A stretch of DNA of 64,000 nucleotides from a virus (Duplodnaviria > Heunggongvirae > Uroviricota > Caudoviricetes). Below are positions 50,727 through 64,000 of the stretch, piece after piece. The DNA lies in IMG/VR virus record IMGVR_UViG_3300012347_000364, positions 89,019 through 153,018 of that record; one strand, written 5' to 3'. Under the pieces are notes generated by a model. The model was given only the letters and a program-made list of their open reading frames with translations, was not told where the DNA came from and did no database searches. How positions within the stretch are numbered: the first letter of the stretch is position 1; the number at the start of each line of letters is the position of its first letter. The translations under genes were made by a program, and so were the position numbers.

Positions 50727-52775
50727 ATGGCTACAGAATTCGACCTAGCACAGACATTTTATGTCGACCCACAAGCAGTTAAGATGGCTGACACCATCTA
50801 TCTCACGAGTGTAGATCTTTACTTCGAAGATAAGCCTATTGCGGGCAAAACAAGAACTGGCATTGCGACGCCTGGCGTTACGTTGTACGTATGCCCAGTG
50901 TATAATGACGTTCCTGACGTTGAGAACTATATTATCGACTCGCGCGCTCGTCGTGAGTATAGCGAGATCATAACTAGCACGACCGCAGCGATAGCAACTA
51001 CATTCAACTTCGAATATCCAGTTGCTGTAAAGACGGATCGCAGCTACGCTGTTTTAATCAGATTCGACGGCAGCGATCCTGATTTCTTATTGTGGTGGAA
51101 TAAGGCCGGTGAGAAGATTCTTTCTACAGAGAGCACCACACAGGTTTCGTCAGGCAAAGTGGATGGTTACTTCTACAAGCTCACTAACGGTAACAATCTC
51201 CAAGGCATGCGCGATGCTGATTTGAAGTTTAACGTTAAGATGGCTCGCTTCACTAGCCCTAGTACCACTTTCAGATTAGCAAATAAGGATTTTGAATTTT
51301 TCAAGTACTTTGCTAATAATGCATCTGGTAACTTTTTAGGTGGTGAATATGTGTATCAGAACACAACACCATCATCAGGTTCTTTGACAGTGGCGTCCGA
51401 CTCAGTCGTCATTGAAGGTAGCGGCACTACGTTTCTGACCGATTATAAAATCGGTGATCATATCATCTTCACTGATGGTACAGACACAAACGTACGACAT
51501 GTAGTTTCTGTCGCTAGCGATAGTCGCCTTACTGTAGACGTGACGCCTACGTTCTCTAATTCAGCTGCTGACTATTTAATCACGCCTATTGGATATGTCT
51601 ACGATTTTGACTCTACTACTGAGCATTTGTTCTTAGAAGGATCATCTGCAAATAGCACTATTAAATTTACTGCAGGCGAGACAGTTGTTGGCGTCGATAG
51701 TCGAGCATATGCGAAGATTAGCGAGATTATCAACTTCGAGGCAAACTATATCCGTGCAGGCATGAACTTTGACACGCCTTCCGGCACGACGGTCAACGTC
51801 CACATCAACTTTGCAAATACTTCGTACGATTATGATAATGGTACAGCTAAGAATGTTGAACTGGGAGCAGAAGTATTCATCAACGACTATCCGGCAATTA
51901 TAGCGTCACGTTCTAATGAAGTGATCAATGGCGGTGGCCTATTCACAGGGTCAAAGTCGCTTGAAGCACAGATTGATTTTATCTCTTCAAACCCATACAC
52001 GTCTCCATACATCAAGGAAGAAAACCTAGATTTATTTACATACAGATTTGAAATCAACAACACCAGTACTGGCGAAGAAACGTCGTCAGGCGCTGCTAAA
52101 TCGAAAGCTGTATCTAAGAAAATTGTACTAGCAGAAGGTCAGGATGCTGAGGATCTACGCGTGTACCTAACAGCATACAAGCCGCAAGGAACTGACATTG
52201 AAGTGTATGCTAAGTTTTTGAACGTTGCTGACTCCGAACCATTCGACGATAAGTCTTGGACGAAGTTAGATCTGGCTTCGAATACCAACATGGTAAGCTC
52301 TTCATTCAACCGTGCAGATTATATTGAATTGGAATATAAGGTCCCAACATATCAGCCTGGAACGGCGATTGATGGTGCATGGACGACGAGTATGTCGAAT
52401 AACGTGATAGTTGCTACAGGCGTTACTGCAAATGCTGTACTAGTTGAACAGGATGTGGTTAGATTATACGATCCTGCGTTCCCTAACAACCACATCACAG
52501 CCGTTGTTGCCACGTCAAATGCTTCGACTATTACGTTAACAACAGCAATCGACAATGCTAGCTTGGTTAGCGGTGGTTTAAAGTTAGAAAAGGTTACAAA
52601 TCCACATAGTGCCTTTTTAAACATTCAAAACGACAACATTATTCGCTACTACAATAATGGGTTGAGTCAGCTTGATGGTTATAAGGTATTTGCTACAAAG
52701 ATCGTGTTATTAGCTAATACTGATTTTAGAGTACCATTTGTAAGCAATATCCGCGGTATTGCAGTGTCAGCATGA
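50727..52775 (+). CDS. virion structural protein (VrlC-like C-terminal segment)
   Basis: DLAQTFYVD...TSVDLYF...EDLRVYL.AYKP...FATKIV. Confidence 0.7.
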   Translation: MATEFDLAQTFYVDPQAVKMADTIYLTSVDLYFEDKPIAGKTRTGIATPGVTLYVCPVYNDVPDVENYIIDSRARREYSEIITSTTAAIATTFNFEYPVAVKTDRSYAVLIRFDGSDPDFLLWWNKAGEKILSTESTTQVSSGKVDGYFYKLTNGNNLQGMRDADLKFNVKMARFTSPSTTFRLANKDFEFFKYFANNASGNFLGGEYVYQNTTPSSGSLTVASDSVVIEGSGTTFLTDYKIGDHIIFTDGTDTNVRHVVSVASDSRLTVDVTPTFSNSAADYLITPIGYVYDFDSTTEHLFLEGSSANSTIKFTAGETVVGVDSRAYAKISEIINFEANYIRAGMNFDTPSGTTVNVHINFANTSYDYDNGTAKNVELGAEVFINDYPAIIASRSNEVINGGGLFTGSKSLEAQIDFISSNPYTSPYIKEENLDLFTYRFEINNTSTGEETSSGAAKSKAVSKKIVLAEGQDAEDLRVYLTAYKPQGTDIEVYAKFLNVADSEPFDDKSWTKLDLASNTNMVSSSFNRADYIELEYKVPTYQPGTAIDGAWTTSMSNNVIVATGVTANAVLVEQDVVRLYDPAFPNNHITAVVATSNASTITLTTAIDNASLVSGGLKLEKVTNPHSAFLNIQNDNIIRYYNNGLSQLDGYKVFATKIVLLANTDFRVPFVSNIRGIAVSA

Positions 52776-52978
52776 TCAAGTACGAAACTACCGACTCCCC
52801 CGGACTCGTGAAGGATCGTACGCGAGGGCATGTTAGTGCTGTGCTAAATACTGATAATGCTCGGCTTGCAGAATATCGCACGCAACGCGCAAGACTCCGC
52901 AGAGTCGATCGGCTTGAGGCTGAAGTATCGGAACTCAAGCAGATAGTAAAGTCACTACTAGGAATGAAGAATGTCTAA
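52772..52978 (+). CDS. small conserved coiled-coil protein of the tail region
   Basis: LVKD...AVLNTD...Y. Confidence 0.7.
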   Translation: MIKYETTDSPGLVKDRTRGHVSAVLNTDNARLAEYRTQRARLRRVDRLEAEVSELKQIVKSLLGMKNV

Positions 52979-53927
52979 AAGTATTGCTGAAGTAGTCGTT
53001 TCTACGGATAGCTTTTCCACGCTAATAACTCGCGTTAATCAGATTGCTGATGCTATGAGTTATGAGGTAGTAACAGCCAATAGCTCATCTACCGGTTCAA
53101 CCACCACAGGAAATGCTGCTGTAGTGGGTATCCTATCATCTAACACATTAGCAGTCACAACGTCATTGCGTGGCGGTACTGTCAGCACCCCTGGCAATTT
53201 GTACATGACGTCTAACGTCGTGGTTAGCAATGGTGTGCTTACGGTCAATTCGAGCATGACTGTGAACAATACAACCACAGGGCTGTATAGCAACAATGCT
53301 ACGATAGGCGGTAATAATCTCACTATCAGCAGCTCTAACACGACCGTTACGGGCAACACGGCCCTAGTCGGTAGTGTGTTTGCAAACAGCGACTTCTATA
53401 TTAATAACTCTAACACGTACATTGACTCATACTCGATGACCGTTACTGGTTCAACGATTGAACTGAACCCAACACAGTTGATTATTAATGCGACAGCTAC
53501 GACTATTTCGTCCAATACTGTCATTGATGGTGAATTGGCTGTTGCGAACACTGTCACTATCAGCGGTGGTATTTTATTTGGGCCTGGTGGTATACTTGGC
53601 CAACAGACGTTTGCTGCCATACCTAATCTAGGGGCAAACACAACTAGTCCGCAATTAGTATGGACTTACCCTAAGAGTGGGTTCACGCTGGCCAATATGT
53701 ATACGGTGGTTCGATCTAGTACTGCTGCAAACGTCCAATCAACACAAGCATCTGTTATATGTAATGGTGTGGATGCATACATGACAGTGTTTGCTGTTCT
53801 AGCAGCTCCAAATACTGCTAACCTTGGCATATTCTCGATAGGAACTGATGCTGCAAACGTTTATATGTACTACACGCAGAATCAACCGAACTCGATAGTA
53901 ACACTAAACATTACCTTAAACAGCTAA
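52971..53927 (+). CDS. tail fibre/baseplate-associated structural protein
   Basis: DSFSTLITRVNQI N-terminus; Asn/Thr/Ser-rich beta repeats. Confidence 0.65.
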   Translation: MSKSIAEVVVSTDSFSTLITRVNQIADAMSYEVVTANSSSTGSTTTGNAAVVGILSSNTLAVTTSLRGGTVSTPGNLYMTSNVVVSNGVLTVNSSMTVNNTTTGLYSNNATIGGNNLTISSSNTTVTGNTALVGSVFANSDFYINNSNTYIDSYSMTVTGSTIELNPTQLIINATATTISSNTVIDGELAVANTVTISGGILFGPGGILGQQTFAAIPNLGANTTSPQLVWTYPKSGFTLANMYTVVRSSTAANVQSTQASVICNGVDAYMTVFAVLAAPNTANLGIFSIGTDAANVYMYYTQNQPNSIVTLNITLNS

Positions 53928-53928
53928 T

Positions 53929-54684
53929 ATGGCATCTTCTAATACCCAGTTCAAAGCCGAAAATGGCATTTATGCTACGGCAAATTCTACCTTTGCAGGC
54001 AGCGTATACATCGGCGGGTCTGCAAATATCGCCGGCGATTTTACGGTGGGTGGTAGTGTGGTCTTTACTGCTAATGTAACTGGCAACTTTATTCCAGACG
54101 TTAGCGGCCGATCATTAGGTAATACAACAAACCGTTGGGAGATTACAGCAAATTCTGGTAATTTTGCCAACGTTGTTACTATTGCTGGTAATACAATCCC
54201 CACATCTAACGGTGGCAATATTGGTACACCAAGCGCACGTTGGTTCTTATACTCTGTTGGCGCCAACGTTGTAGGAACATCTACAACAACCGAATTAGTA
54301 ACGACTAATAACGCTAGTGTAGGCAATAACTTAGTTGTTAGCAATAATGTAACGATCAATAGTCGCGTCAATCTTTCCGGCAACGCTTTCACATCATCCA
54401 ATACATCACAGTCAGTAATTGACACATATTCTGCTACAACATACCGCAGCGCAAAGTATTTGGTAGAGACGGTAGACAATAATACAACAGGTTCTTATGT
54501 TGTGCAAGAATTATTACTAACGCACAACGGAACGATCGTGTCGTTGAGCGAGTATGGTGCTGTGCAAATGGCAACGCCTTACGCAACGTTTGACGCTGAT
54601 ATCAGTGGCGGCAACGTTCGTCTATTAGCAACGTCTACATCTACAAACACAACATATAAAGTAGCTCGTACGCTACTACTCTAA
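53929..54684 (+). CDS. tail fibre-associated structural protein
   Basis: YRSAKYLVE...ELLLTHNGT...EYG...FDADISGGNVRL. Confidence 0.65.
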   Translation: MASSNTQFKAENGIYATANSTFAGSVYIGGSANIAGDFTVGGSVVFTANVTGNFIPDVSGRSLGNTTNRWEITANSGNFANVVTIAGNTIPTSNGGNIGTPSARWFLYSVGANVVGTSTTTELVTTNNASVGNNLVVSNNVTINSRVNLSGNAFTSSNTSQSVIDTYSATTYRSAKYLVETVDNNTTGSYVVQELLLTHNGTIVSLSEYGAVQMATPYATFDADISGGNVRLLATSTSTNTTYKVARTLLL

Positions 54685-54714
54685 TTTAACAATCATTAGC
54701 GGATAGGGAAACTA

Positions 54715-56085
54715 ATGGCAAATTTACAAGACTTCCGCGTTAAACGCGGTTTAATCGTTGCTAATAATACAACGCTCTCAGGCAACGCGAGCGTATCAGG
54801 TAACTTAGCAGTCGTTGGTATTACGACACATACTGGCAACACAACGTTTAATGGAGCCGTCACGGTAGCGAACACAGCTGCGTTTGTGGGCGGCAACGTT
54901 GTATTCAATTCTAACACACTCGTCGTAGATGCCACCAATAGCCGTGTTGCAGTGAATGCTGCGTCAAGCACTGTGGCGTTCTATGTTCAAGGTGCTGCTA
55001 ACGTATCTACTACGTTTACGACAGCTAACTTAGTCGCGAATAACATTTCAACTACCACCGCAGCAGTTAATACATTAACGGTCTCTGGATCAACCAACTC
55101 ATCGATTGGTACATCGACGTTCTTCGTTAATCCTTCACTGAACCGTGTAGGTATCAATACCGCTGCGCCAGATGCGTCGCTTGCTGTTTCAGGAACTGCT
55201 AACGTATCTGGCGCAGCATCATTCGGTAATACATCAGCTTTCGTTGGCGCAGCCACTTTCAGCAATACAATTGCTGTTACTGGTGCTACGACGTTGAGCA
55301 GTACTGTTTCTGTTGCTGGTGATGTTACTATCATCAGCGGTAACGTAGCTCTAAGCAACACATCTAAGTACTTTGTTGGTAGTATTACAGGTACGTCCAA
55401 TACAACGATGCGTACAGTAAACCCTGGCTCATATTTGTCGGGCGGTGGGCAATTGACGTCAGATATTACGTTGAACGTAAATGCGACGCCTAGTAACGTA
55501 GGTTCAACTATAGTAGCACGCAATGCTTCAGGCGATTTTACTGCTGGCACAATCTCCGCGACATTGTCTGGAACTGCAACATACGGCACATATTCATCAT
55601 ACTTGTTATATGGCGGTTCATATCGCAGTGCTACAGAAGCAAATACAGCTTCAACTATCATGGCACGTGATACTAACGGCGATACGAATGCACGTTACTT
55701 CCGTGGTACTGCCACGTCAGCGCTGTATGCTGACTTAGCTGAATTGTATTTGGCTGATGAAGATTATCCTGTAGGTACGGTAGTAACTATTGGCGGCGAG
55801 AAGGAAATCACTGCATACTCAAGCGAAGTATCGATAAGAGCATTGGGCACAATTTCGGAGAATCCTGCATACTTGATGAATAGTGGGCTAGAAGGTGGTC
55901 TCCCTGTAGCATTGAAGGGCCGAGTACCAGTACGCGTCCTTGGCACTGTTAGGAAGAATCAAGGGTTAGGTCCAAGCGCCGTTCCTGGTGTTGCTACGAT
56001 GGCTAGCCACAATTACTTCGCAATTGCTTTGCAGGATTATGACAACTTTGGTGAAGAAGGCATCATCGAGGCTGTGATTCTATGA
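54715..56085 (+). CDS. tail fibre protein with putative C-terminal autocleaving chaperone domain
   Basis: FRVKRGL start; RVGINT repeats; C-terminal ALYADLAELY...GTVV.IGG.KE...ALKGRVPVRV. Confidence 0.7.
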   Translation: MANLQDFRVKRGLIVANNTTLSGNASVSGNLAVVGITTHTGNTTFNGAVTVANTAAFVGGNVVFNSNTLVVDATNSRVAVNAASSTVAFYVQGAANVSTTFTTANLVANNISTTTAAVNTLTVSGSTNSSIGTSTFFVNPSLNRVGINTAAPDASLAVSGTANVSGAASFGNTSAFVGAATFSNTIAVTGATTLSSTVSVAGDVTIISGNVALSNTSKYFVGSITGTSNTTMRTVNPGSYLSGGGQLTSDITLNVNATPSNVGSTIVARNASGDFTAGTISATLSGTATYGTYSSYLLYGGSYRSATEANTASTIMARDTNGDTNARYFRGTATSALYADLAELYLADEDYPVGTVVTIGGEKEITAYSSEVSIRALGTISENPAYLMNSGLEGGLPVALKGRVPVRVLGTVRKNQGLGPSAVPGVATMASHNYFAIALQDYDNFGEEGIIEAVIL

Positions 56086-56894
56086 CGCTAGCCGAATACG
56101 CAAAGACCCATGAGGAGTTGGCGAATGTGGGATTCGTTCAACACGACATGCCAACCGCACCAAAAATTGTAGGATTGTTTGGTGGGTTTTCTTTGCGTGA
56201 TGTTCAACCACTGAACGCCCACAACGAGAGTTTAAAGCGTGATTTTGGACCACCTCCGGAGGATCTCGGTCTAACTACGCGTGATGAGATTGAGCAGTGG
56301 TATGCAGAACAAATTCCCTCGCTAGCACCAAATAAAAAGAAGACGTTGACGCAAGGATTCAATCAGCAGGGTGTATGTTACTTAGACCCTTGCTGGCCAA
56401 TAATTTTAGCCGATTATATGTCTACCCTGAGTGTGGAAGAGTGTGCCGCTCTTGAGACACAGTATGAATATATCGGTCTAAATGTTGCCGAATACATTGA
56501 AGCTGTAAATGCAGAGCATCGTGGTGGTTCATATCCGGAGCATATGAGCATACCCACCTTACAACAACGTAAGTATTTTATCAATGATGTTATAGTAGAC
56601 CAGCTACTAAAGCCTTTGTTTGTTGATGGGAAGTATTCAATCCAACAAAAAGCAATTGTAATGGTACTGCCTTTCGGTTCTTCAGAATTTGCGCAGGATT
56701 GTGATAACTTGGTGTATATGAAAGAATCGGCTGAGGTTGTTGCAGACTTCATGCAATATCTTGATGAAGATATGAAGCTTATTGTTAGCGATCACGAGGC
56801 TACATACGTTATACAAAAGCATGTTGCTATCGACATAAATAATATGACAGACGCTCAGATTATCAACAACATCATCTACAACACGAGTATATAA
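56082..56894 (+). CDS. hypothetical protein
   Basis: ORF coupled to the fibre gene; no motif recognised. Confidence 0.7.
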   Translation: MTLAEYAKTHEELANVGFVQHDMPTAPKIVGLFGGFSLRDVQPLNAHNESLKRDFGPPPEDLGLTTRDEIEQWYAEQIPSLAPNKKKTLTQGFNQQGVCYLDPCWPIILADYMSTLSVEECAALETQYEYIGLNVAEYIEAVNAEHRGGSYPEHMSIPTLQQRKYFINDVIVDQLLKPLFVDGKYSIQQKAIVMVLPFGSSEFAQDCDNLVYMKESAEVVADFMQYLDEDMKLIVSDHEATYVIQKHVAIDINNMTDAQIINNIIYNTSI

Positions 56895-57289
56895 TGGCTC
56901 AAACAGAACGTACGCCAAAAAATATCTACGGAACTGCTGACATCAACACGATTAACGCGTTGAAGGCCTCTATAACTGCAAACACCGTGGTGTATGCGAG
57001 TCAGATAAATTCGCTGATTGGTCTGTACAACACAATGAACACGCACTACCATAGATATGATGATGCGTACCAACTTGCAACATATGGTGCTGGATATGGC
57101 CAGTGGCCAGGTGCTGGCGATCGAACAGACTATTATGTGGATAAAGATACATCATACCCAGTAAGCGGGGCTAGTATTAGTACTGTGGCAGCGGGTAGCG
57201 TTGCTACTGCAAGCAAACACAACGAAATTGCTGGACAATCACGTACAATGAAGGTCCATTATCACACGATAGACGACAGAACAGCTTAA
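56894..57289 (+). CDS. small putative virion/fibre protein with two HxH-xx-DD repeats
   Basis: THYHRYDD and VHYHTIDD; CATAAATA at 56834. Confidence 0.6.
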   Translation: MAQTERTPKNIYGTADINTINALKASITANTVVYASQINSLIGLYNTMNTHYHRYDDAYQLATYGAGYGQWPGAGDRTDYYVDKDTSYPVSGASISTVAAGSVATASKHNEIAGQSRTMKVHYHTIDDRTA

Positions 57290-57305
57290 CAGGCCCCAAT
57301 ATATT

Positions 57306-58538
57306 ATGAAACCCTTGAACAAAAGATACGTCATAACAGGGATGGGGGTCGTAAATGCCCTTGGCAGCGGAGTAGACAACACTTTCAGCCGACTCCTCGA
57401 TACATCCAACGAAACGCCACGGATTGCCAAATGGGATTCAGTTAATCAGCCTGCAATTCTCGTTAACCGTGCACACGAACTCCCGGATTTAGACCTTATA
57501 GCAAATGGGGCATATGAGCCTCGCGAGGCTCGTTCATGGCCTCTACTAACTAAGGCTGCTGCCATTGCTGTATACGAGGCTGTGCAGCAATCTGGATTTG
57601 AAACATCCAATGTAGCTACGCTGATATCGAGTATTGGTGGTGGCAACGATATGCGTGATACAGTTGAGCGATCATATCACGCTGGTAAGACGAAAGCAAA
57701 TCCGTTCCAAACCTTAGGAATATCCTACGACTATACTGCAGGAGCAATTGCGTCTAAGTATCGATGGAATGGTCCAAGTACGGTGATGGTATCGGCCTGC
57801 GCTAGCGGTCTATACACCCTCGACTATGCAATTAAGTGTATCGATGCTGGCGATTGTGATGTGGCAGTCGTAGGTGGTACAGATGCGATGGCTGATCACT
57901 ACAATCTCTATTTTTTCCAAGTACTGCACGCTCTTTCAAAGAGAGACGAACCCCATATCAGCCAACCATTCAGCACTGAGCGAGATGGTTTTGTAATGGG
58001 TGAGGGTGCTGGGATTGTTGTTGTCGAAACTCTAGAACATGCGTTGAATAGAAACGCAAACATATTGGCTGAAGTTTGTGGGATGGGATTCTATACTGAA
58101 ACGGAGCATCCGACAACTCCTAGTGAAGGCGGCATTGGCGCTATAGCTAGCGCCACTACAGCTGTGAAGAGGGCTGGGATAGAATTCAACCAAATAGATT
58201 TCATTAACGCTCACGCCACATCAACACCAATAGGCGATGCAATCGAATACAATGCAATGAATACGTTGTTTCCTAACTCAATCATAACCTCAGCAAAAGG
58301 CCACATCGGACACACCATGAGTGCTGGTGGGATCATTGAGATGATCTACGGCATTAAATCAATGCAGACGGAAACTATTTTCCCGGTCGCTAATTTTACG
58401 AGTTGCGATTTCGTTAAAGAATTACATATCAATAAACAACCACTAAATAAAAGCTCGAAGTATTTTTTGAAAAATTCTTATGGGTTTGGTGGCAAGTGTG
58501 CAAGTGTTGTAATTGGTAAGTGTAATATAGAAGAATAA
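57306..58538 (+). CDS. fabF: beta-ketoacyl-ACP synthase II
   Basis: Catalytic Cys in SACASG; His in NAHATSTPIGD and KGHIGH; KNSYGFGG. Confidence 0.93.
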   Translation: MKPLNKRYVITGMGVVNALGSGVDNTFSRLLDTSNETPRIAKWDSVNQPAILVNRAHELPDLDLIANGAYEPREARSWPLLTKAAAIAVYEAVQQSGFETSNVATLISSIGGGNDMRDTVERSYHAGKTKANPFQTLGISYDYTAGAIASKYRWNGPSTVMVSACASGLYTLDYAIKCIDAGDCDVAVVGGTDAMADHYNLYFFQVLHALSKRDEPHISQPFSTERDGFVMGEGAGIVVVETLEHALNRNANILAEVCGMGFYTETEHPTTPSEGGIGAIASATTAVKRAGIEFNQIDFINAHATSTPIGDAIEYNAMNTLFPNSIITSAKGHIGHTMSAGGIIEMIYGIKSMQTETIFPVANFTSCDFVKELHINKQPLNKSSKYFLKNSYGFGGKCASVVIGKCNIEE

Positions 58539-58539
58539 T

Positions 58540-59328
58540 ATGCAAAATGCGATAACGTTTGAACCAACGAGTAGAAACATACAACTAATTCAATTGGTGT
58601 GCTTTAGCGCAGTATTGTATTGTGTCATTGTTCCGTCTGATTGGTTTTGGTATGTGGTATCCATCGCTGTATACGCGATCAATGTGTTGATTGGTCTTAG
58701 TTTCACTATGCATAGGCTACACAGCCATAAGTGTTTCAATACATTCCCTGCATTTGAAAAGTTGTTATCCATCCACGCATGTATGTCAATGGTAGGAAGC
58801 CCATTATCATATTCTTACATCCATCGCTTCCATCACGCCAATAGCGACAACAACGTAGATCCGCATAGCCCTAAAGATGGCGTGATGCATTCTATATTTG
58901 GTCTCCACCAACCTTATAAATTGCAGGCTTTTATCATTAGAGATTTTCTCAAAAGCAAATTTCAAATGTTTGTCCACAAATACTACTTGTTGATTGTTGT
59001 TGCAATTTGCGGACTGGTTGCTTCTTTTAGCCTTCATGCATTGGTGTTTGGAATATTGGTGCCAGGATTCTTTACAGCACTTGCTAGTAGATTAAACAAC
59101 TGGATTACCCACGAGCCTAGATTTGGTATCCAGGATAACGATACTGGAGACAACTCAAGAAACGTTTGGTGGTGGAATGCTATACTAGTTTGGTCAGGTG
59201 AGGGATGGGCAAATAATCACCATCACCGATCGGGGGATTATGATTTTGGAAAACCACAAAGTCGCATAGATATTACTGCCCGGTTAATTGAATTGATGGC
59301 AACGATCAGAATGATAAAGGTAAAATAA
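58540..59328 (+). CDS. membrane fatty acid desaturase (delta-9 type)
   Basis: His boxes HRLHSH and HRFHH, DPHSP, GEGWANNHH; TM segments. Confidence 0.88.
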   Translation: MQNAITFEPTSRNIQLIQLVCFSAVLYCVIVPSDWFWYVVSIAVYAINVLIGLSFTMHRLHSHKCFNTFPAFEKLLSIHACMSMVGSPLSYSYIHRFHHANSDNNVDPHSPKDGVMHSIFGLHQPYKLQAFIIRDFLKSKFQMFVHKYYLLIVVAICGLVASFSLHALVFGILVPGFFTALASRLNNWITHEPRFGIQDNDTGDNSRNVWWWNAILVWSGEGWANNHHHRSGDYDFGKPQSRIDITARLIELMATIRMIKVK

Positions 59329-59654
59329 TGTTCTCTAGAGAAAACCCATCTGAAAACAGAAGTGGCGACTTATCGCAAATAAAATATACATGGACTAGGA
59401 AGACTGCTGAGCATAGCGTAATGGTAGCGACGTGTCCAAAGATTAACGATGCGGGTAAGGTGGTTGGCCAGTTTGCTGCATATAAAGAAGCTCACGATCT
59501 GCATTGTGATCCAGAGCAGTTTGCTGCAGATAATAATTGGACAAAAGACCTTCGATATGAAATTGCAGACCAGATCAACAATCCAGTGTTTGGTCATTTC
59601 GATTTAGAAACATACGTATCGATCCACAACACCTCGATAAGGACAAGAGCATGA
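59328..59654 (+). CDS. hypothetical protein
   Basis: Translationally coupled within the cluster. Confidence 0.65.
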   Translation: MFSRENPSENRSGDLSQIKYTWTRKTAEHSVMVATCPKINDAGKVVGQFAAYKEAHDLHCDPEQFAADNNWTKDLRYEIADQINNPVFGHFDLETYVSIHNTSIRTRA

Positions 59655-60478
59655 GTCGTCATATGATGCGCAACATTGTCGAACGTATGGATATACGATT
59701 CGACCCTGTACAAGTAGAAGAAGAATGGGAAGCAATTAAGCATAATATGTCTCGTGCAGGGATGATGAATGCTGCTCTCCCAAAAGAGGGAATCGACCGT
59801 CTTGATTATTTCTACATCGAAAATCCAAGAATCGATCCAGTGATCGAGGGGACCATTTTCGAGAAGTTTATTAAGGCTCTCCCAATTAAGGTTAGCAGAG
59901 CGACTTTTCTTAATTTAATTCCTAACCAATGTCTACGTTGGCATAGAGATCCAGACAACAAAATCCACCTACCGATTAACGATAAGCCTGGTTCTTTCTT
60001 TTACGATTTTGAAGAACAAGAAGCATATCCAATCAAGGCGGACGGGCACGCTTACAGATATTTTACTTCAGCAAGATATCACAGCGCGTTCAACGCAAGT
60101 TGTTTTAACAGAACGCATTTAGTTGCTGCTGAATATCACTGTCGCAATTCAGAACCATCTAAGGTGTGGGGACAAGAACTGACAGTTCGTATTCCGGATG
60201 AGGTTTCTTATCCACCTAAAATATCACGGAACGACTCGATCGAGCAAGCCTTCTTTGTTGAGTGGGTTGCAAGAACAATTCATGATGGGTGGCTGTTTAG
60301 CGGATCAGCAAAGGATACAAACGGAGAAGGATGTACATATAGAACGTATAACTTTGAGTTTATTGATCCTGATAAAATGAAGCAATCGTTCAACGGTGAG
60401 TTTGATATGCTGCAAGTTGCTCTCGCACAGCACAACATTGAAGTTAAGTTAGGTGACGTTTGTGAACGGGTATGTTGA
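59651..60478 (+). CDS. Asp/Asn hydroxylase-like 2OG-Fe(II) oxygenase with C-terminal extension
   Basis: LRWHRD (HxD)...KIHLPI...YHSAFN...RTHLV. Confidence 0.75.
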   Translation: MSRHMMRNIVERMDIRFDPVQVEEEWEAIKHNMSRAGMMNAALPKEGIDRLDYFYIENPRIDPVIEGTIFEKFIKALPIKVSRATFLNLIPNQCLRWHRDPDNKIHLPINDKPGSFFYDFEEQEAYPIKADGHAYRYFTSARYHSAFNASCFNRTHLVAAEYHCRNSEPSKVWGQELTVRIPDEVSYPPKISRNDSIEQAFFVEWVARTIHDGWLFSGSAKDTNGEGCTYRTYNFEFIDPDKMKQSFNGEFDMLQVALAQHNIEVKLGDVCERVC

Positions 60479-60827
60479 ATTTCCCGTATCGATAACGCAA
60501 GATGAAATTGATGTCTTTTGTTCAATGACGAAAGACAAAAATCCTCAACATAAGAGTGATGTAGAGCGAGTAGTGGCGCCTGGGATGCTTCTGTGTGCTA
60601 AAGCTCTAGGAGAAACGGATAATCAATTTCACATAGTGTGGTTGATAGAGCAACAGATAAGATTCAGCAAACAGGTATATATTGATGAACCTATAATTGT
60701 ACGACATACGTTAATCAGACAAAAACAAATACGATCTGGATTGTTACAGGAGATACAAATCGACGTCAAAGTAAATGATGAGATTAGATACTCTGGTAAA
60801 ATGAAAATATTAAAGACACTAAAATGA
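60453..60827 (+). CDS. MaoC/PhaJ-like hot-dog dehydratase
   Basis: F..MTKDKNPQH...VVAPGML...QQIRFSKQVYIDE. Confidence 0.8.
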   Translation: MTFVNGYVEFPVSITQDEIDVFCSMTKDKNPQHKSDVERVVAPGMLLCAKALGETDNQFHIVWLIEQQIRFSKQVYIDEPIIVRHTLIRQKQIRSGLLQEIQIDVKVNDEIRYSGKMKILKTLK

Positions 60828-61858
60828 AAAAGACGGTATTCATTCAAAATATCCCTCACTATCCTACTGCATGGGGTGATGCAGTTGCGTCATGGAACCT
60901 GGCCAGCTTCTTTAAAGGGATGGGCACTTGGTATGCAAAGGATTATCAGCAACAGTTAAAGTTCTGGTCAAAGCAGAGCTTCAATATCATCTTAGATTCC
61001 GATCGTGATGATGCTTCGAAGTTAGTGCTACGTCACTATATGATTCCTAAGGTGCCAGGTGGTGCTGATCTTCGTAAGAGCATTGATCTAAGAGAAGCAT
61101 TTAAATATCTGGATGAAAATCCCGGTCGGCGTACAGTCGCTTTTGGTGTATTCTTCGACCCCAAACAAAGTAATTTTTCTACTGAGTATGTGATTAACGA
61201 ATCGAAGTGGTTTACGCGCGAGCCACACGATCTACAGGTAGATGATGAATCGCTTGCTGATCATTACACTCATAATAAGTTTATCCGTTTAGGCGAAACA
61301 GAACCAATCACTAACGAGAGTAATATTGGTACAATTGTGTGGTTCTTCTTATACAGAGCAATCGATCTACCATTATACTACATAATTCCTAACCCCGATA
61401 TGTTGGGTGTTGCTATTAATTTTAACGATATTATATCTGACGATATTAGGTACATGGTCACTGAGCCACATTTTGGCACAGTTGGCGATTTGATCTTTAG
61501 GCCTAAGTATAGCCGAAACGTTGTGCAAATGACACCCGATAAAATAGCAGCCGGCGAGAACTTCCATATCGACCCGTTTAGGGGCGGTGTGTTTGAGTGG
61601 GGATTCAAAGAACAAGTGCCTAAGGTTCCTATTAAGGTGTATTCGAATTTAGAATATATCCGCGACGAAACGACCAACAGGATATATTTTAAGTTCAATG
61701 AAGGTCAGCAGCATGGATATGTGAATATGCGTTGGAATAGCAATGCATTAATGGATTTTAGTCAGAGTAGTCACTCTTTCGATAACCTACAAAACAAGTG
61801 CACGCTCACGCTTGATGTATATCGAAACGATCGATATAAATATCAAGAGGAGAAGTAA
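60824..61858 (+). CDS. hypothetical protein
   Basis: Coupled ORF within the cluster; no motif recognised. Confidence 0.7.
   Translation: MKKTVFIQNIPHYPTAWGDAVASWNLASFFKGMGTWYAKDYQQQLKFWSKQSFNIILDSDRDDASKLVLRHYMIPKVPGGADLRKSIDLREAFKYLDENPGRRTVAFGVFFDPKQSNFSTEYVINESKWFTREPHDLQVDDESLADHYTHNKFIRLGETEPITNESNIGTIVWFFLYRAIDLPLYYIIPNPDMLGVAINFNDIISDDIRYMVTEPHFGTVGDLIFRPKYSRNVVQMTPDKIAAGENFHIDPFRGGVFEWGFKEQVPKVPIKVYSNLEYIRDETTNRIYFKFNEGQQHGYVNMRWNSNALMDFSQSSHSFDNLQNKCTLTLDVYRNDRYKYQEEK
61835..61852 (+). promoter_or_regulatory. T4-type late promoter and SD for the Cys-rich peptide
   Basis: TATAAATA 61835-61842; GAGGAG 61847-61852; ATG 61859. Confidence 0.7.
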
Positions 61859-62065
61859 ATGGCAGTAGAAAACACCAGTAATGTTAGCATAACTTCCACA
61901 GCCGCTAGTGATAAGGCGGTTGGGGCATCTATTAGTGCGGACACATTCCAACAAATGCTCAACGTGTTGTCTGATTTAGTATCTCACAACCACACTTTTT
62001 ATGATGATTATACGACAGTGTGCGAATGCCAATGTCAATGTGACTGTAGTCGTGGGACCTTATGA
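61859..62065 (+). CDS. 68-aa Cys-rich putative radical SAM substrate (precursor peptide or small virion protein)
   Basis: ...SHNHTFYDDYTTVCECQCQCDCSRGTL; stop overlaps the rSAM start. Confidence 0.75.
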   Translation: MAVENTSNVSITSTAASDKAVGASISADTFQQMLNVLSDLVSHNHTFYDDYTTVCECQCQCDCSRGTL

Positions 62066-63795
62066 ATGAACAAAAAATTGTTTGGGTAAAAACTGAAGCA
62101 CAAAAGAAAAGGTTTAGAGACCATAAGGCATCGGTGTCTGAACTTCATGATGGTACTTTGGAATTTAGAAGCGAGAGCATAATCACGCCTAAAGGGTTAG
62201 AAAAGACTAACAAGCTAATCCACGTCGTACCAAAAGACGATGAACAAATAGTCCCACTTTCAAACGCTTCGTATTTGTTTCAAGAACTGAAGCAAATGAA
62301 CCTCATACTAACAAATGCATGTAACTTAGCGTGCACGTATTGCTATGAGCAGCACAATAAGGATTTCGGTAGATTCACTAACGACAGTTTGTTGAAGGCA
62401 TATCGTTTCTTAGTTGGAGCGAATGATCGCCAACGTAAAGTGTTCAACTTCTTTGGCGGTGAGCCGCTGATCCATAAAGACATTATTCTTGACTTTTTGA
62501 GAAACAATGAAGCAGAATTACAACACAACGCACGTGGCGATATTAACACCATCGTTGGTATCGTAACTAACGGTTTGTTGTTTAGCAAAGAGTTGCTCGA
62601 TGAGTACTTGTCGTACGACTTTACATTCATATTAATCTCACTTGACACGAATAGAAGTGAGGTTGACCACCGTGAAATAGGTCAACCAAAGATTGATAAG
62701 CTGTTGGAATACATCAGCTATATTCCCGAAGACGTTAAGCTACAAAAACGTATTACTATACGTTGCACATTAGCGCGCGAAAACGCTCCATACTTCATTG
62801 AGTTCGCTGAAGACTTATATTCGCGTGGTATTAGACGAATGGTTGTTCATCCGCTTATACTAGATTCTAGTAAGGGTTTCATCCAATGGACAACTGCTGA
62901 GTGGGATAAACTTCACAAAGATATCATTAGCATACTAAACAAATACGACGACTTCCAAATCCATTTCTCTGAAGGTGTGGGCCAAAAGGGCGAAGAGAAT
63001 TGCATGATCGGATCTGACATGATTGCAATCGATGCGTCCGGCGACTTCTCGGGATGCTACTTCTTCACAAACCAAAAGGCAAGCTCAACATCGGAAACGA
63101 TTCTCGGCAATCTTTTCCACGGCACGATATATCTCGACCGTTATAAGAGATTCCAAAAAGAATATGCCAAGATGTTTATGGAAGAAGAACAGTGCCAAAC
63201 ATGCGATTATAAGAATGCGTGCTACCAGTGTCCTGCCGGTAACCTAGACACTGGTTCAAGAATGTTCAGACCAGATGATATGTGTCAGAAGATTGTTAAG
63301 CTGTACCTCGATCTCCAAGAGGATATTGCAAAAAAGCAATTTAAGAAGAAGTATGAGAGCGTCGTGTCTGCTGTCGAGACGTCTGGAGAGAATATCAGCT
63401 TTGCAAAAGGCTTGAGTTATTTAATGTTCTTCTTCTATTTCAACTACCACCCTAAGCCAGAAGTGGCTCATGCCGGGATTGAAGGCGTTGGTGATTATCG
63501 TCAAATGCTTGCTCTATTCAAAAAGCTGATCGACAGAGAAGTGGAATTCAAATTCTCGTCTGACAATTTTGTTGAAGAATTGAAGAGCTTGTTGAGTAGC
63601 GATACAATGGAAGTTGATGACTTTTATTACTATGTGGTTAAAAGGGGCAACCTAACCCCAACAGTGAATAAGATTAACTCCACTACACAATATCAAAGAT
63701 CATTCTTCCTTTGCTTACTGCATATGATTTTCTTACAATCTATGCACAAGACATACGAAGGAACTTTTAGTGAACGACTTAATCAGCCCGATTAA
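62062..63795 (+). CDS. radical SAM/SPASM-domain peptide maturase
   Basis: CNLACTYC (CxxxCxxC); FFGGEP; VTNG; SPASM Cys array CMIG..IAIDASGDFSGC...CQTCDYKNACYQCP...C. Confidence 0.93.
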   Translation: MNEQKIVWVKTEAQKKRFRDHKASVSELHDGTLEFRSESIITPKGLEKTNKLIHVVPKDDEQIVPLSNASYLFQELKQMNLILTNACNLACTYCYEQHNKDFGRFTNDSLLKAYRFLVGANDRQRKVFNFFGGEPLIHKDIILDFLRNNEAELQHNARGDINTIVGIVTNGLLFSKELLDEYLSYDFTFILISLDTNRSEVDHREIGQPKIDKLLEYISYIPEDVKLQKRITIRCTLARENAPYFIEFAEDLYSRGIRRMVVHPLILDSSKGFIQWTTAEWDKLHKDIISILNKYDDFQIHFSEGVGQKGEENCMIGSDMIAIDASGDFSGCYFFTNQKASSTSETILGNLFHGTIYLDRYKRFQKEYAKMFMEEEQCQTCDYKNACYQCPAGNLDTGSRMFRPDDMCQKIVKLYLDLQEDIAKKQFKKKYESVVSAVETSGENISFAKGLSYLMFFFYFNYHPKPEVAHAGIEGVGDYRQMLALFKKLIDREVEFKFSSDNFVEELKSLLSSDTMEVDDFYYYVVKRGNLTPTVNKINSTTQYQRSFFLCLLHMIFLQSMHKTYEGTFSERLNQPD

Positions 63796-64000
63796 AATTG
63801 TCAGCAAGACGCCTCTAGCAGGCGTCAAGCTAATAACGATATATCTTGGCAACACTTGTAATTTCGATTGCGTTTATTGCGATCGAGGGTACATAGAGAG
63901 CCTTGGTGGGCAGAATCTTGGAAAGTCAACTTCCGAGGACATGCAACAATTCTTTGAGTGGGTTGATACGCAGCCCAACGAGATTTTACGCGTTGCGTTC
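63770..64000 (+). CDS. second radical SAM enzyme (5' part, runs off the window; not in ORF track)
   Basis: GTG start 63770 behind GAAGGA; ...IYLGNTCNFDCVYCD (CxxxCxxC)...RVAF; frame open to 64000. Confidence 0.85.
   Translation, partial: MNDLISPIKIVSKTPLAGVKLITIYLGNTCNFDCVYCDRGYIESLGGQNLGKSTSEDMQQFFEWVDTQPNEILRVAF

What the first reader, a model, noticed from the sequence alone, without database searches (positions are those of the whole stretch)
56894..62065. The Cys-rich peptide shares an HxH-xx-DD module with a neighbouring small protein
The 131-aa ORF has two repeats (VVYASQINSLIGLYNTMNTHYHRYDD; VATASKHNEIAGQSRTMKVHYHTIDD). The 68-aa peptide has a third (SISADTFQQMLNVLSDLVSHNHTFYDD) immediately before its (Cx)4C tail. 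HxH doublets are the established metal-binding motif of trimeric T4 fibre tips (gp12, gp37). The apparent leader may therefore be a structural trimerisation/docking helix rather than a disposable leader, so the rSAM substrate would be a fibre subunit, with the Cys-free protein as its scaffold or adaptor.
Basis: partly seen in the sequence, partly recalled or inferred. Interest (0 to 1): 0.8.

Follow-up and report, generated by a model that had tools for sequence, protein, structure and literature searches.

The report
Split three-repeat scaffold carrying Cys-rich tail
In a jumbo phage's tail-fibre gene block, a 131-residue protein with two helix-His-x-His repeats and a 68-residue cysteine-rich peptide with a third are predicted to join into one three-helix unit, so the peptide's front half looks like a retained docking piece, not a throw-away leader.

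Summary
The similarity is statistically real: profile-profile E is 2e-8 between the peptide and protein families and 2e-10 between the protein's two halves. A module profile hits exactly three places in the 222.8-kb phage genome.

The pairing is conserved. All 20 informative IMG/VR loci, several other metagenome contigs and Ralstonia phages RP12/RP31 carry one two-module gene, one one-module Cys-tail peptide and a radical SAM/SPASM gene. These sit inside or beside tail-fibre or baseplate genes.

Single-chain relatives with three modules followed by a Cys-rich tail also exist, which argues that the three modules work together. A complex prediction supports a 1:1 heterodimer: score 0.66, best control 0.42. 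In that model the three module helices pack in parallel and roughly in register, the three HxH motifs meet at one end, and the Cys tail stays free.

Metal binding, thioether chemistry and presence in virions remain untested. RP31 gel-band proteomics did not list the orthologue. I found no Pfam family, solved structure or paper describing this.

The parts
56894..57289 (+). 131-aa Cys-free two-module protein (scaffold)
   Evidence: ORF. 88 metagenome homologues. Invariant H51, H53, Y55, D57, H122, H124, D128. AF2 model has pLDDT 81 and pTM 0.71, with helices 17-26, 35-49 and 106-120. Only family hit is phrog_31780, function unknown.
56981..57064 (+). Module 1 (residues 30-57): helix followed by HYH-RY-DD
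   Evidence: Module HMM domain E 1.5e-10. Helix 35-49, then strand 52-59.
57194..57277 (+). Module 2 (residues 101-128): helix followed by HYH-TI-DD
   Evidence: Module HMM domain E 3.7e-11. Internal repeat E 2.1e-10. Helix 106-120.
57306..60827 (+). Variable insert between the scaffold gene and the rest of the cassette: ketoacyl synthase, fatty-acid desaturase and ORFs of 108, 275 and 124 aa
   Evidence: Pfam hits. The same position is empty in RP12, L004, L038 and L041 and holds an aminotransferase in L006 and L008.
60824..61858 (+). 344-aa conserved cassette protein of unknown function. Lies directly upstream of the peptide gene in the metagenome loci and directly downstream of it in RP12
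   Evidence: Proteins of 295-321 aa at that position in L001, L004, L006 and L008. No Pfam, NCBIfam or PHROG hit. Atlas neighbours are viral only.
61835..61842 (+). TATAAATA (T4 late-promoter-like), followed by GAGGAG, 16 bp before the peptide ATG
   Evidence: Sequence. There are 5 copies in the window against 4.1 expected by chance, so this is not significant on its own.
61859..62065 (+). 68-aa Cys-rich peptide: variable N-terminus, module 3, invariant FYDDYTTV linker, (Cx)4C tail
   Evidence: ORF. 49 homologues, invariant from I25 to G66 at most positions.
61922..62005 (+). Module 3 (residues 22-49): helix followed by HNH-TFY-D
   Evidence: Module HMM E 4.1e-12. hhalign to module 1 gives E 2.2e-8. 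Residues 29-49 lie in the predicted interface.
62021..62047 (+). CECQCQCDC tail, presumed radical SAM substrate
   Evidence: Sequence. Not in the predicted interface. The adjacent rSAM gene overlaps the peptide stop codon.
62062..63795 (+). 577-aa radical SAM/SPASM enzyme
   Evidence: Pfam Radical_SAM 1.7e-16, SPASM 0.0023. Best NCBIfam model is the PapB ranthipeptide maturase, 1.6e-32 and 113 bits, far below its 340-bit cut-off. A homologue is present in all 20 informative loci.
63770..64000 (+). Start of a second radical SAM gene. It continues past the window edge (371 aa), followed by a 356-aa ORF, a third rSAM (436 aa) and a DUF3050/haem-oxygenase-like protein (244 aa)
50727..56894 (+). 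Upstream tail-fibre-like genes (682, 318, 251, 456 and 270 aa), downstream of the baseplate wedge, gp8-like and DUF4815 genes
   Evidence: PHROG tail-fibre hits. Pfam baseplate hits.

Best explanation
The three modules are homologous repeats, each a short strand or loop, an amphipathic helix and an HxH-x(2-3)-D motif. Together they form one pseudo-threefold domain.

In this phage the domain is split across two genes. The 131-aa protein supplies two repeats plus a short N-terminal helix. The 68-aa peptide supplies the third repeat. The two are predicted to form a 1:1 heterodimer whose three module helices run parallel and roughly in register.

This geometry brings the three HxH motifs (six histidines) together at one end. 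The (Cx)4C tail emerges from that end.

By inference, the tail is cross-linked by the adjacent radical SAM/SPASM enzymes, most likely through Cys thioethers to the interleaved Glu, Gln or Asp residues. Also by inference, the histidine cluster binds a metal ion as in phage fibre HxH sites.

The modified peptide is therefore kept on its scaffold as a small rigid knob. It is probably an accessory part of the tail-fibre apparatus and not a released RiPP.

Shown: repeat homology, the three-per-cassette rule, linkage to rSAM genes, and fused forms. Predicted: the heterodimer geometry. Inferred: metal binding, thioether chemistry and virion location.
For: 1. Homology. E 2.2e-8, E 2.1e-10, and a gap-free 34-column alignment.

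2. Three modules per cassette.
- Own genome.
- RP12, L004-L009 and L016.
- 20 of 20 IMG/VR loci with at least 2.6 kb of downstream sequence have one two-module gene, one one-module Cys-tail peptide and an rSAM homologue.

3. Fused forms. P0245, P0212 and P0260 carry three HxH modules and then a Cys-rich tail in one chain. On the contigs read, their genes directly precede an rSAM gene. P0245 lies after gp25/Baseplate_J and fibre genes.

4. The domain also occurs without a Cys tail or with other C-terminal domains: P0191, P0203, P0239 and family A6. hhalign of A3 against A6 gives E 1.3e-6.

5. Complex prediction. ipSAE 0.66 against a best control of 0.42. That mark was reached by 58 of 80 solved complexes and 2 of 110 mismatched pairs, though these counts hold only roughly because my own alignments were used. 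The runs share at least 77% of contacts and the partner's pLDDT is at least 64.
- Contacts 41-33, 45-37 and 48-40 match the homologous offset of 8.
- Contacts 112-33, 116-37 and 119-40 match the offset of 79.
- H51, H53, residues 121-128 and peptide residues 40-49 are in the interface. Tail residues 50-68 are not.
- No similar solved complex exists by sequence or fold, so the pass is unlikely to come from memory.

6. Conservation. The peptide is invariant from the helix seam (I25, M33, L37, L40) through HxH, FYDDYTTV and the Cys tail.

7. Cleavage and export. Pfam finds no protease or exporter in the cassette.

8. Context. The cassette is embedded between fibre-like genes, with a fibre-assembly-like gene downstream.
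Against: - RP31 virion mass spectrometry (PMC5468394, Table S3) lists 32 proteins. None is ORF70 (the two-module orthologue), ORF71, or the neighbouring fibre-like ORF68/69. That analysis used excised gel bands, so small or low-copy proteins and cross-linked peptides are easily missed.
- A homotrimer, or any other stoichiometry, was not tested because only one complex job was available.
- No coordinates were available, so His-His distances and metal geometry are unverified.
- Most members of the wider triple-repeat family lack HxH, so the metal site is not essential to the fold.
- The rSAM scores far below every curated family cut-off, so the chemistry is a guess.
- Large, conserved, protein-derived leaders that are later cleaved have precedent in the Nif11 and NHLP classes (my own knowledge).
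- Four cassette proteins have no assigned function and could include a protease.
Confidence: 0.55

Rival explanations
1. Biosynthetic chaperone and disposable leader. The two-module protein would be a stand-alone leader-binding partner, playing the role of PqqD or an RRE. It would hold the peptide's helix while the three radical SAM enzymes modify the tail. The leader would then be cut off and a small cross-linked peptide would act on the host or on competitors.
For: - The rSAM has no recognisable RRE/PqqD domain and only about 74 residues before its core, so a separate recognition partner is plausible.
- Predicted binding goes through the leader-like helix.
- Tight three-way linkage of scaffold, peptide and rSAM.
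- Not found in RP31 virions.
- Variable metabolic genes (fatty-acid genes, an aminotransferase) sit inside the cassette, as in natural-product clusters.
Against: - Pfam finds no protease, transporter or immunity gene.
- There is no Gly-Gly type cleavage motif, and the linker FYDDYTTV is invariant.
- In fused forms the would-be chaperone is part of the substrate chain.
- The same domain carries globular C-terminal domains or nothing.
- The cassette lies inside fibre gene blocks in three unrelated phage lineages.
Confidence: 0.25
2. True homotrimer. Three copies of the peptide would form a trimeric coiled coil with an HxH metal site and three Cys tails. The two-module protein would form a separate adaptor, for example trimers or dimers giving six helices.
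For: - HxH sites in T4 gp37 are built from three identical chains (PMC11705849).
- The helix seam is heptad-like.
Against: - There are exactly three modules per cassette, split 2+1.
- Single-chain three-module relatives exist.
- The heterodimer prediction passes its controls, with in-register packing of all three modules.
- Homotrimers were not modelled, so this reading is disfavoured but not excluded.
Confidence: 0.1
3. The HxH-Y-D-D segments are themselves radical SAM substrates, for example three-residue cyclophane or His/Tyr cross-links. Both proteins would then be precursors, and the three rSAM enzymes would act on different sites.
For: - There are three rSAM genes per cassette, and six around the fused form in L012.
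- Weaker NCBIfam similarity to cyclophane-forming and His-Xaa-Ser maturases.
- Aromatic-x-x motifs are invariant.
Against: - The best similarities are to Cys-thioether maturases: PapB, the CXXX-repeat family and SCIFF.
- L016 has the modules, one rSAM, and a tail with a single Cys, which points to Cys as the target.
- There is no direct evidence either way.
Confidence: 0.08

Closest known systems
HxH metal sites of trimeric phage fibres and spikes (T4 gp37 tip; gp12; P2 gpV/phi92 gp138 apex)
   Same: Paired histidines from three related segments would converge to give six ligands at the distal end of a phage adsorption-module protein (PMC11705849 for gp37; the others from my own knowledge). 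The genes lie among fibre genes.
   Different: Here the three segments come from two different chains (2+1) or from one chain, not from three identical chains. Each HxH follows an alpha-helix, whereas in gp37 the HxH motifs lie in the fibre tip (its beta-rich structure is my own recollection). No sequence or fold similarity to these proteins was found. Metal binding is untested.
Radical SAM/SPASM Cys-thioether RiPP systems (PapB ranthipeptides, SCIFF, CXXX-repeat targets)
   Same: A short Cys-rich C-terminal core is encoded directly upstream of a SPASM-type rSAM gene. Acidic and amide residues are interleaved with the cysteines. PapB, the CXXX-repeat family and SCIFF are the best-scoring models.
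   Different: Scores are far below the family cut-offs: 113 bits against 340. The peptide matches no target-peptide family, including PF27846. No RRE, protease or exporter was found. The 'leader' is homologous to, and predicted to fold together with, a separate protein. The system is phage-encoded and lies inside the fibre module.
PqqD/RRE leader-binding partners of rSAM maturases
   Same: A small separate protein is predicted to bind the precursor's N-terminal part next to an rSAM-SPASM enzyme.
   Different: This is not a winged-helix RRE (no Pfam or fold match). Binding is by completing a helical bundle with a paralogous repeat, not by beta-strand addition.
BARA domain of Vps30/Beclin 1 (three beta-alpha repeats with pseudo-threefold symmetry)
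   Same: It is among the best geometric matches for the fused three-module model: 3vp7 Z 7.2, rmsd 3.7 A, 120 residues aligned; 4ddp Z 6.8. A designed filament protein, 8ubg, ties at Z 7.3. Both folds are built from three beta-alpha units.
   Different: Z is below the level the tool itself treats as meaningful for helical proteins. Identity is 6% and the biology is unrelated. This is an analogy of architecture only.
Single-copy adhesins that cap trimeric fibres (T2/S16 gp38 type)
   Same: A small protein is encoded just after distal fibre genes. A pseudo-threefold monomer or heterodimer could sit on a threefold fibre tip (my inference, from my own knowledge of gp38).
   Different: No sequence similarity was found, and attachment to any fibre is untested.

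Membership tests
PapB-family radical SAM/SPASM ranthipeptide maturase (NF047865) | Score at or above the curated equivalog cut-off (340 bits) | tested here: not met
   113 bits, E 1.6e-32. This is a general SPASM peptide-maturase relative, not an equivalog.
Radical SAM superfamily with SPASM auxiliary-cluster domain | CxxxCxxC radical SAM core plus a C-terminal Cys-rich SPASM domain | tested here: met
   PF04055 at 61.3 bits, above its 29.5-bit cut-off. The motif CNLACTYC is visible. SPASM scores 18.6 bits, just under its 21.5-bit cut-off.
CXXX-repeat rSAM target peptides (PF27846 / TIGR04115 system) | Peptide matches the target-repeat model and the enzyme reaches the TIGR04115 cut-off | tested here: not met
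   The peptide has no Pfam hit even at E 10. The enzyme scores 76.5 bits against a 350-bit cut-off. A viral Atlas cluster in which 23% of members carry PF27846 resembles the scaffold model at TM 0.48; this is a lead only.
RiPP precursor with disposable leader | Leader-cleavage site and a protease or PCAT exporter in the cluster | tested here: inconclusive
   No protease or transporter family was detected, and no Gly-Gly motif is present. Four cassette ORFs remain unassigned.
RRE/PqqD leader-recognition domain | PqqD-like winged-helix domain in the rSAM or in a partner protein | tested here: inconclusive
   No PqqD hit in the rSAM or the 131-aa protein. No fold match was found.
T4 gp37/gp12-type HxH metal-binding fibre segments | Six His from three chains coordinating Fe or Zn within a trimeric fibre | not testable with these tools
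   The three HxH motifs are invariant and all lie in the predicted interface. No coordinates or metal data were available. No sequence or fold similarity to fibre structures was found.
YmaF family (PF12788) | Score at or above the 27-bit gathering cut-off | tested here: not met
   The window's proteins have no hit at E 10. The fused relative P0260 reaches 24.5 bits over 3 stretches and P0212 reaches 16.1 bits.
Virion structural protein | Detected in purified particles | tested here: inconclusive
   The only available data set is RP31 gel-band LC-MS/MS, which lists 32 proteins. It lacks the orthologue ORF70 and also lacks the adjacent fibre-like ORF68/69.

The most novel reading that the evidence does not exclude
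Phages of at least three lineages (T4-like jumbo, phiKZ-like RP12/RP31, and a gp25/Baseplate_J myovirus) would decorate their adsorption apparatus with a radical-SAM-cross-linked, RiPP-like cysteine knob. The knob would stay attached to a metal-clamped pseudo-threefold platform. In most of these phages the platform is assembled from two genes (2+1) by repeat complementation. This would be a virion protein matured by RiPP chemistry, and a natural example of a RiPP 'leader' that has become a permanent structural subunit.
Probability: 0.3. Interest if true: 0.9.

Novelty: new variant of a known kind. Interest (0 to 1): 0.72.

Why it matters
If the peptide stays on its scaffold, this links two fields that have been separate: RiPP-type radical SAM cross-linking and phage receptor-binding hardware.

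- It would give a compact, cross-linked and probably metal-stabilised display module of about 22 kDa, with a defined 2+1 assembly rule.
- It would show how a repeat domain can be split so that only one of three equivalent units carries a payload. That is one way to place a single-copy tip on a threefold platform.
- It would define an unannotated family of about 200 representative clusters with no Pfam model.
- It reveals a missed 65-codon gene in two cultured Ralstonia phages. That gene makes the idea directly testable at the bench.

Tried and rejected
- Nucleotide search of 56000-64000 against 50,697 phage records: no match.
- tblastn of the 131-aa protein and of the fused form P0260 against phages: no match. 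Only RP12/RP31 carry the peptide and the scaffold.
- Pfam, NCBIfam and PHROGs give no functional name for the 131-aa protein, the peptide, or the ORFs of 344, 275, 124, 108 and 270 aa.
- Foldseek against PDB for both AF2 models: nothing at E 0.001 or better.
- VIA-align wide search: best Z 5.5 for the scaffold model and 7.3 for the fused model. Both are within the range the tool calls common for helical proteins. The TssK and IglD rows (Z 4.3-5.3) were not pursued.
- PDB sequence search with the module profile: nothing below E 0.9.
- Giant multi-stretch hits in the profile search: P0141 is a VWA-repeat protein and P0182 has only sub-threshold Pfam hits. I judged both to be partial, spurious matches.
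- The TATAAATA late-promoter argument: 5 copies against 4.1 expected, so not usable as statistics.
- The Atlas search on the 344-aa protein gave only unnamed viral clusters.
- Literature searches found no description of this system. The cyanophage paper PMC12801897 mentions an rSAM maturase but nothing on this module.

Full report
**What is there.** The window is bases 89019-153018 of a 222,825-bp IMG/VR phage record with direct terminal repeats. The peptide ends in CECQCQCDC-SRGTL. Its stop codon overlaps the start of a 577-aa radical SAM/SPASM gene (62062-63795), and a second rSAM gene starts at 63770. Between the two small genes lie a ketoacyl synthase, a fatty-acid desaturase and four unassigned ORFs.

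**Is the shared module real?** Yes.
- I collected 88 homologues of the 131-aa protein and 49 of the peptide.
- Profile-profile comparison of the two families gives probability 95.3% and E 2.2e-8. It aligns the peptide's helix-HxH segment with module 1.
- The two halves of the 131-aa family match each other at E 2.1e-10 and 38% identity.
- All three module types align without gaps over 34 columns. I7, A9, H25, H27 and D31 are invariant or nearly so.
- An HMM of the module finds exactly three places in the whole phage genome, with domain E between 1e-10 and 1e-12. The next best hit has E 0.73.

**Conservation of the pair.** Ralstonia phages RP12 and RP31 carry a 125-aa two-module protein (ORF074/ORF70). 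It is followed by an unannotated 65-aa ORF with one module and a CNCNCNCAC tail, then a 295-aa ORF and three rSAM genes.

Metagenome contigs L004-L009 show a fixed gene order:
1. baseplate wedge, a gp8-like gene and a DUF4815 giant protein;
2. fibre-like genes;
3. the two-module protein;
4. an optional insert;
5. a protein of about 300 aa;
6. a 67-68-aa peptide;
7. rSAM, rSAM, a protein of about 350 aa, and a third rSAM;
8. a DUF3050/haem-oxygenase-like protein.

In 26 IMG/VR loci, every one of the 20 with at least 2.6 kb of downstream sequence has exactly one one-module Cys-tail peptide and an rSAM homologue. The six without them are cut off 2.3 kb or less after the scaffold gene.

In this genome the cassette is followed by an L-shaped-tail-fibre-assembly-like gene and two fibre-like genes. 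It is therefore embedded in the fibre block.

**Fused forms.** A profile of the module, searched against 1.84 billion representative proteins, gave 208 hits at E 0.001 or better. Most are proteins of 120-150 aa with two stretches, or peptides of 53-93 aa with one stretch.
- Several single chains carry three modules. P0245, P0212 and P0260 have three HxH modules followed directly by a Cys-rich tail. On the contigs read, their genes directly precede an rSAM gene.
- P0245 lies after gp25/Baseplate_J and fibre genes of an unrelated myovirus, among six rSAM genes.
- Other relatives have three modules and no Cys tail, or a globular C-terminal domain (P0191, P0203, P0239).
- P0205 has two modules plus a C-terminal domain. 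It is followed by a one-module peptide with a single Cys and then one rSAM gene.
- A wider family shows the triple repeat WTDPTITAxxTKIRKVHIDELRTAI, mostly without HxH. It matches the two-module family at E 1.3e-6 and the peptide family at E 9e-5.

The unit of function is therefore a three-repeat domain, and here it is split 2+1.

**Structure.** The AF2 model of the 131-aa protein has pLDDT 81 and pTM 0.71. It shows helices at 17-26, 35-49 and 106-120, with the first HxH in a strand. The fused P0260 model has pLDDT 72 and pTM 0.71, with three long helices, one per repeat.

Neither model has a convincing PDB match. Among the best geometric analogues of the fused form is the BARA domain, which is built from three beta-alpha repeats (Z 7.2). 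A designed filament protein ties at Z 7.3. Both are below the tool's own noise guide for helical proteins.

The one complex job was run on the scaffold plus the peptide, each supplied with its own alignment. It passed.
- The score was 0.66 against a best control of 0.42. That mark was reached by 58 of 80 solved complexes and by 2 of 110 mismatched pairs. These counts hold only roughly because my own alignments were used.
- The runs agree in at least 77% of their contacts, and the partner's pLDDT is at least 64.
- The lowest-error contacts pair peptide residues 33, 37 and 40 with scaffold residues 41, 45 and 48. That is offset 8, the homologous offset between H51 and H43.
- The same peptide residues pair with scaffold residues 112, 116 and 119. 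That is offset 79, the homologous offset between H122 and H43.
- The three module helices therefore pack in parallel and roughly in register. The N-terminal helix 17-26 packs on as a fourth element.
- H51, H53, residues 121-128 and peptide residues 40-49 are all in the interface. Tail residues 50-68 are not.

This is a prediction, not a measurement. No similar solved complex exists, so a pass from memory is unlikely.

**Mechanism proposed.** Repeat complementation builds a pseudo-threefold platform. Six histidines converge at the end from which the Cys tail leaves. By analogy with fibre HxH sites (PMC11705849) they may clamp a metal ion.

The tail would be cross-linked by the rSAM enzymes. The first of these is most similar to Cys-thioether maturases (PapB, the CXXX-repeat family, SCIFF), but it scores far below their cut-offs.

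Several observations favour a retained 'leader':
- the module and linker are invariant;
- Pfam finds no protease or exporter in the cassette;
- fused and Cys-free forms of the domain exist.

The repeated location in fibre or baseplate blocks of three phage lineages suggests a role in adsorption. One possibility, which is my inference, is a single-copy cap on a threefold fibre.

**Evidence against and limits.**
- RP31 virion proteomics used excised gel bands and listed 32 proteins. It lists neither ORF70, ORF71 nor the fibre-like ORF68/69 (PMC5468394 Table S3). This is weak negative evidence.
- Homotrimers were not modelled.
- Metal binding, the cross-link chemistry and the fate of the N-terminal part are all untested.
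- The late-promoter-like TATAAATA before the peptide gene is present but is not statistically enriched in the window.

**Verdict.** The 'leader' is best read as a docking repeat and the Cys-free protein as its scaffold. The assembly is a 2+1 pseudo-trimer, not a fibre-like homotrimer, and virion membership is unproven. I found no published description and no curated family for this system.

Noticed in passing
L001:9983-10180 (RP12 AP017924.1 bases 82888-83085; RP31 match at AP017925.1 79651-79821): A 65-codon gene for the Cys-rich one-module peptide is not annotated in the GenBank records of Ralstonia phages RP12 and RP31, although it lies between ORF074 and ORF075.
   Followed up: yes
window 57306-60827: The slot between the scaffold gene and the roughly 300-aa cassette gene is variable. 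In this phage it holds a ketoacyl synthase, a fatty-acid desaturase and three small ORFs. In L006 and L008 it holds an Aminotran_3 gene on the opposite strand. It is empty in L004, and in RP12, L038 and L041 the peptide gene follows the scaffold gene directly. It looks like an insertion hot spot for metabolic genes.
   Followed up: partly
L010:6268-7002 (genome 156267-157001, just beyond the window): A DUF3050/HamA-like haem-oxygenase-like protein (PF11251, E 5e-73) closes the cassette. The same is true in L004-L009, and RP12 ORF080 is annotated as MgoB-like. Its substrate in this context is unknown.
   Followed up: no
L012:6070-16612: An 86.7-kb gp25/Baseplate_J-type phage contig carries the fused three-module Cys-tail protein among six radical SAM genes, directly after its fibre genes.
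   Followed up: partly
A6 family (P0287-P0304): There is a wider triple-repeat domain, WTDPTITAxxTKIRKVHIDELRTAI three times, with no Pfam model. It occurs in proteins from Patescibacteria and Rokubacteria bins and in phage-like contigs. Some members have hydrophobic, signal-peptide-like N-termini (by eye, not tested) and extra N-terminal domains. Others have long C-terminal Cys-rich regions (CICEAEQCQYCADCGY...).
   Followed up: partly
P0260, P0212: The fused HxH forms give sub-threshold, three-stretch matches to the uncharacterised YmaF family (PF12788; 24.5 bits against a 27-bit cut-off). This hints at a distant link between YmaF HxH repeats and this module.
   Followed up: no
window 56894-56920 and alignment A3: The N-terminus of the two-module family, MA(Q/T)TER-PK, is almost invariant (M1, A2, T4, R6, K9), although it lies outside the modules. 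It could be a docking or processing motif.
   Followed up: no
L016:4539-4715: A minimal version of the system: a two-module protein with an extra C-terminal domain, a 58-aa one-module peptide ending FYDDYTTACGG with a single Cys, and only one rSAM gene.
   Followed up: partly
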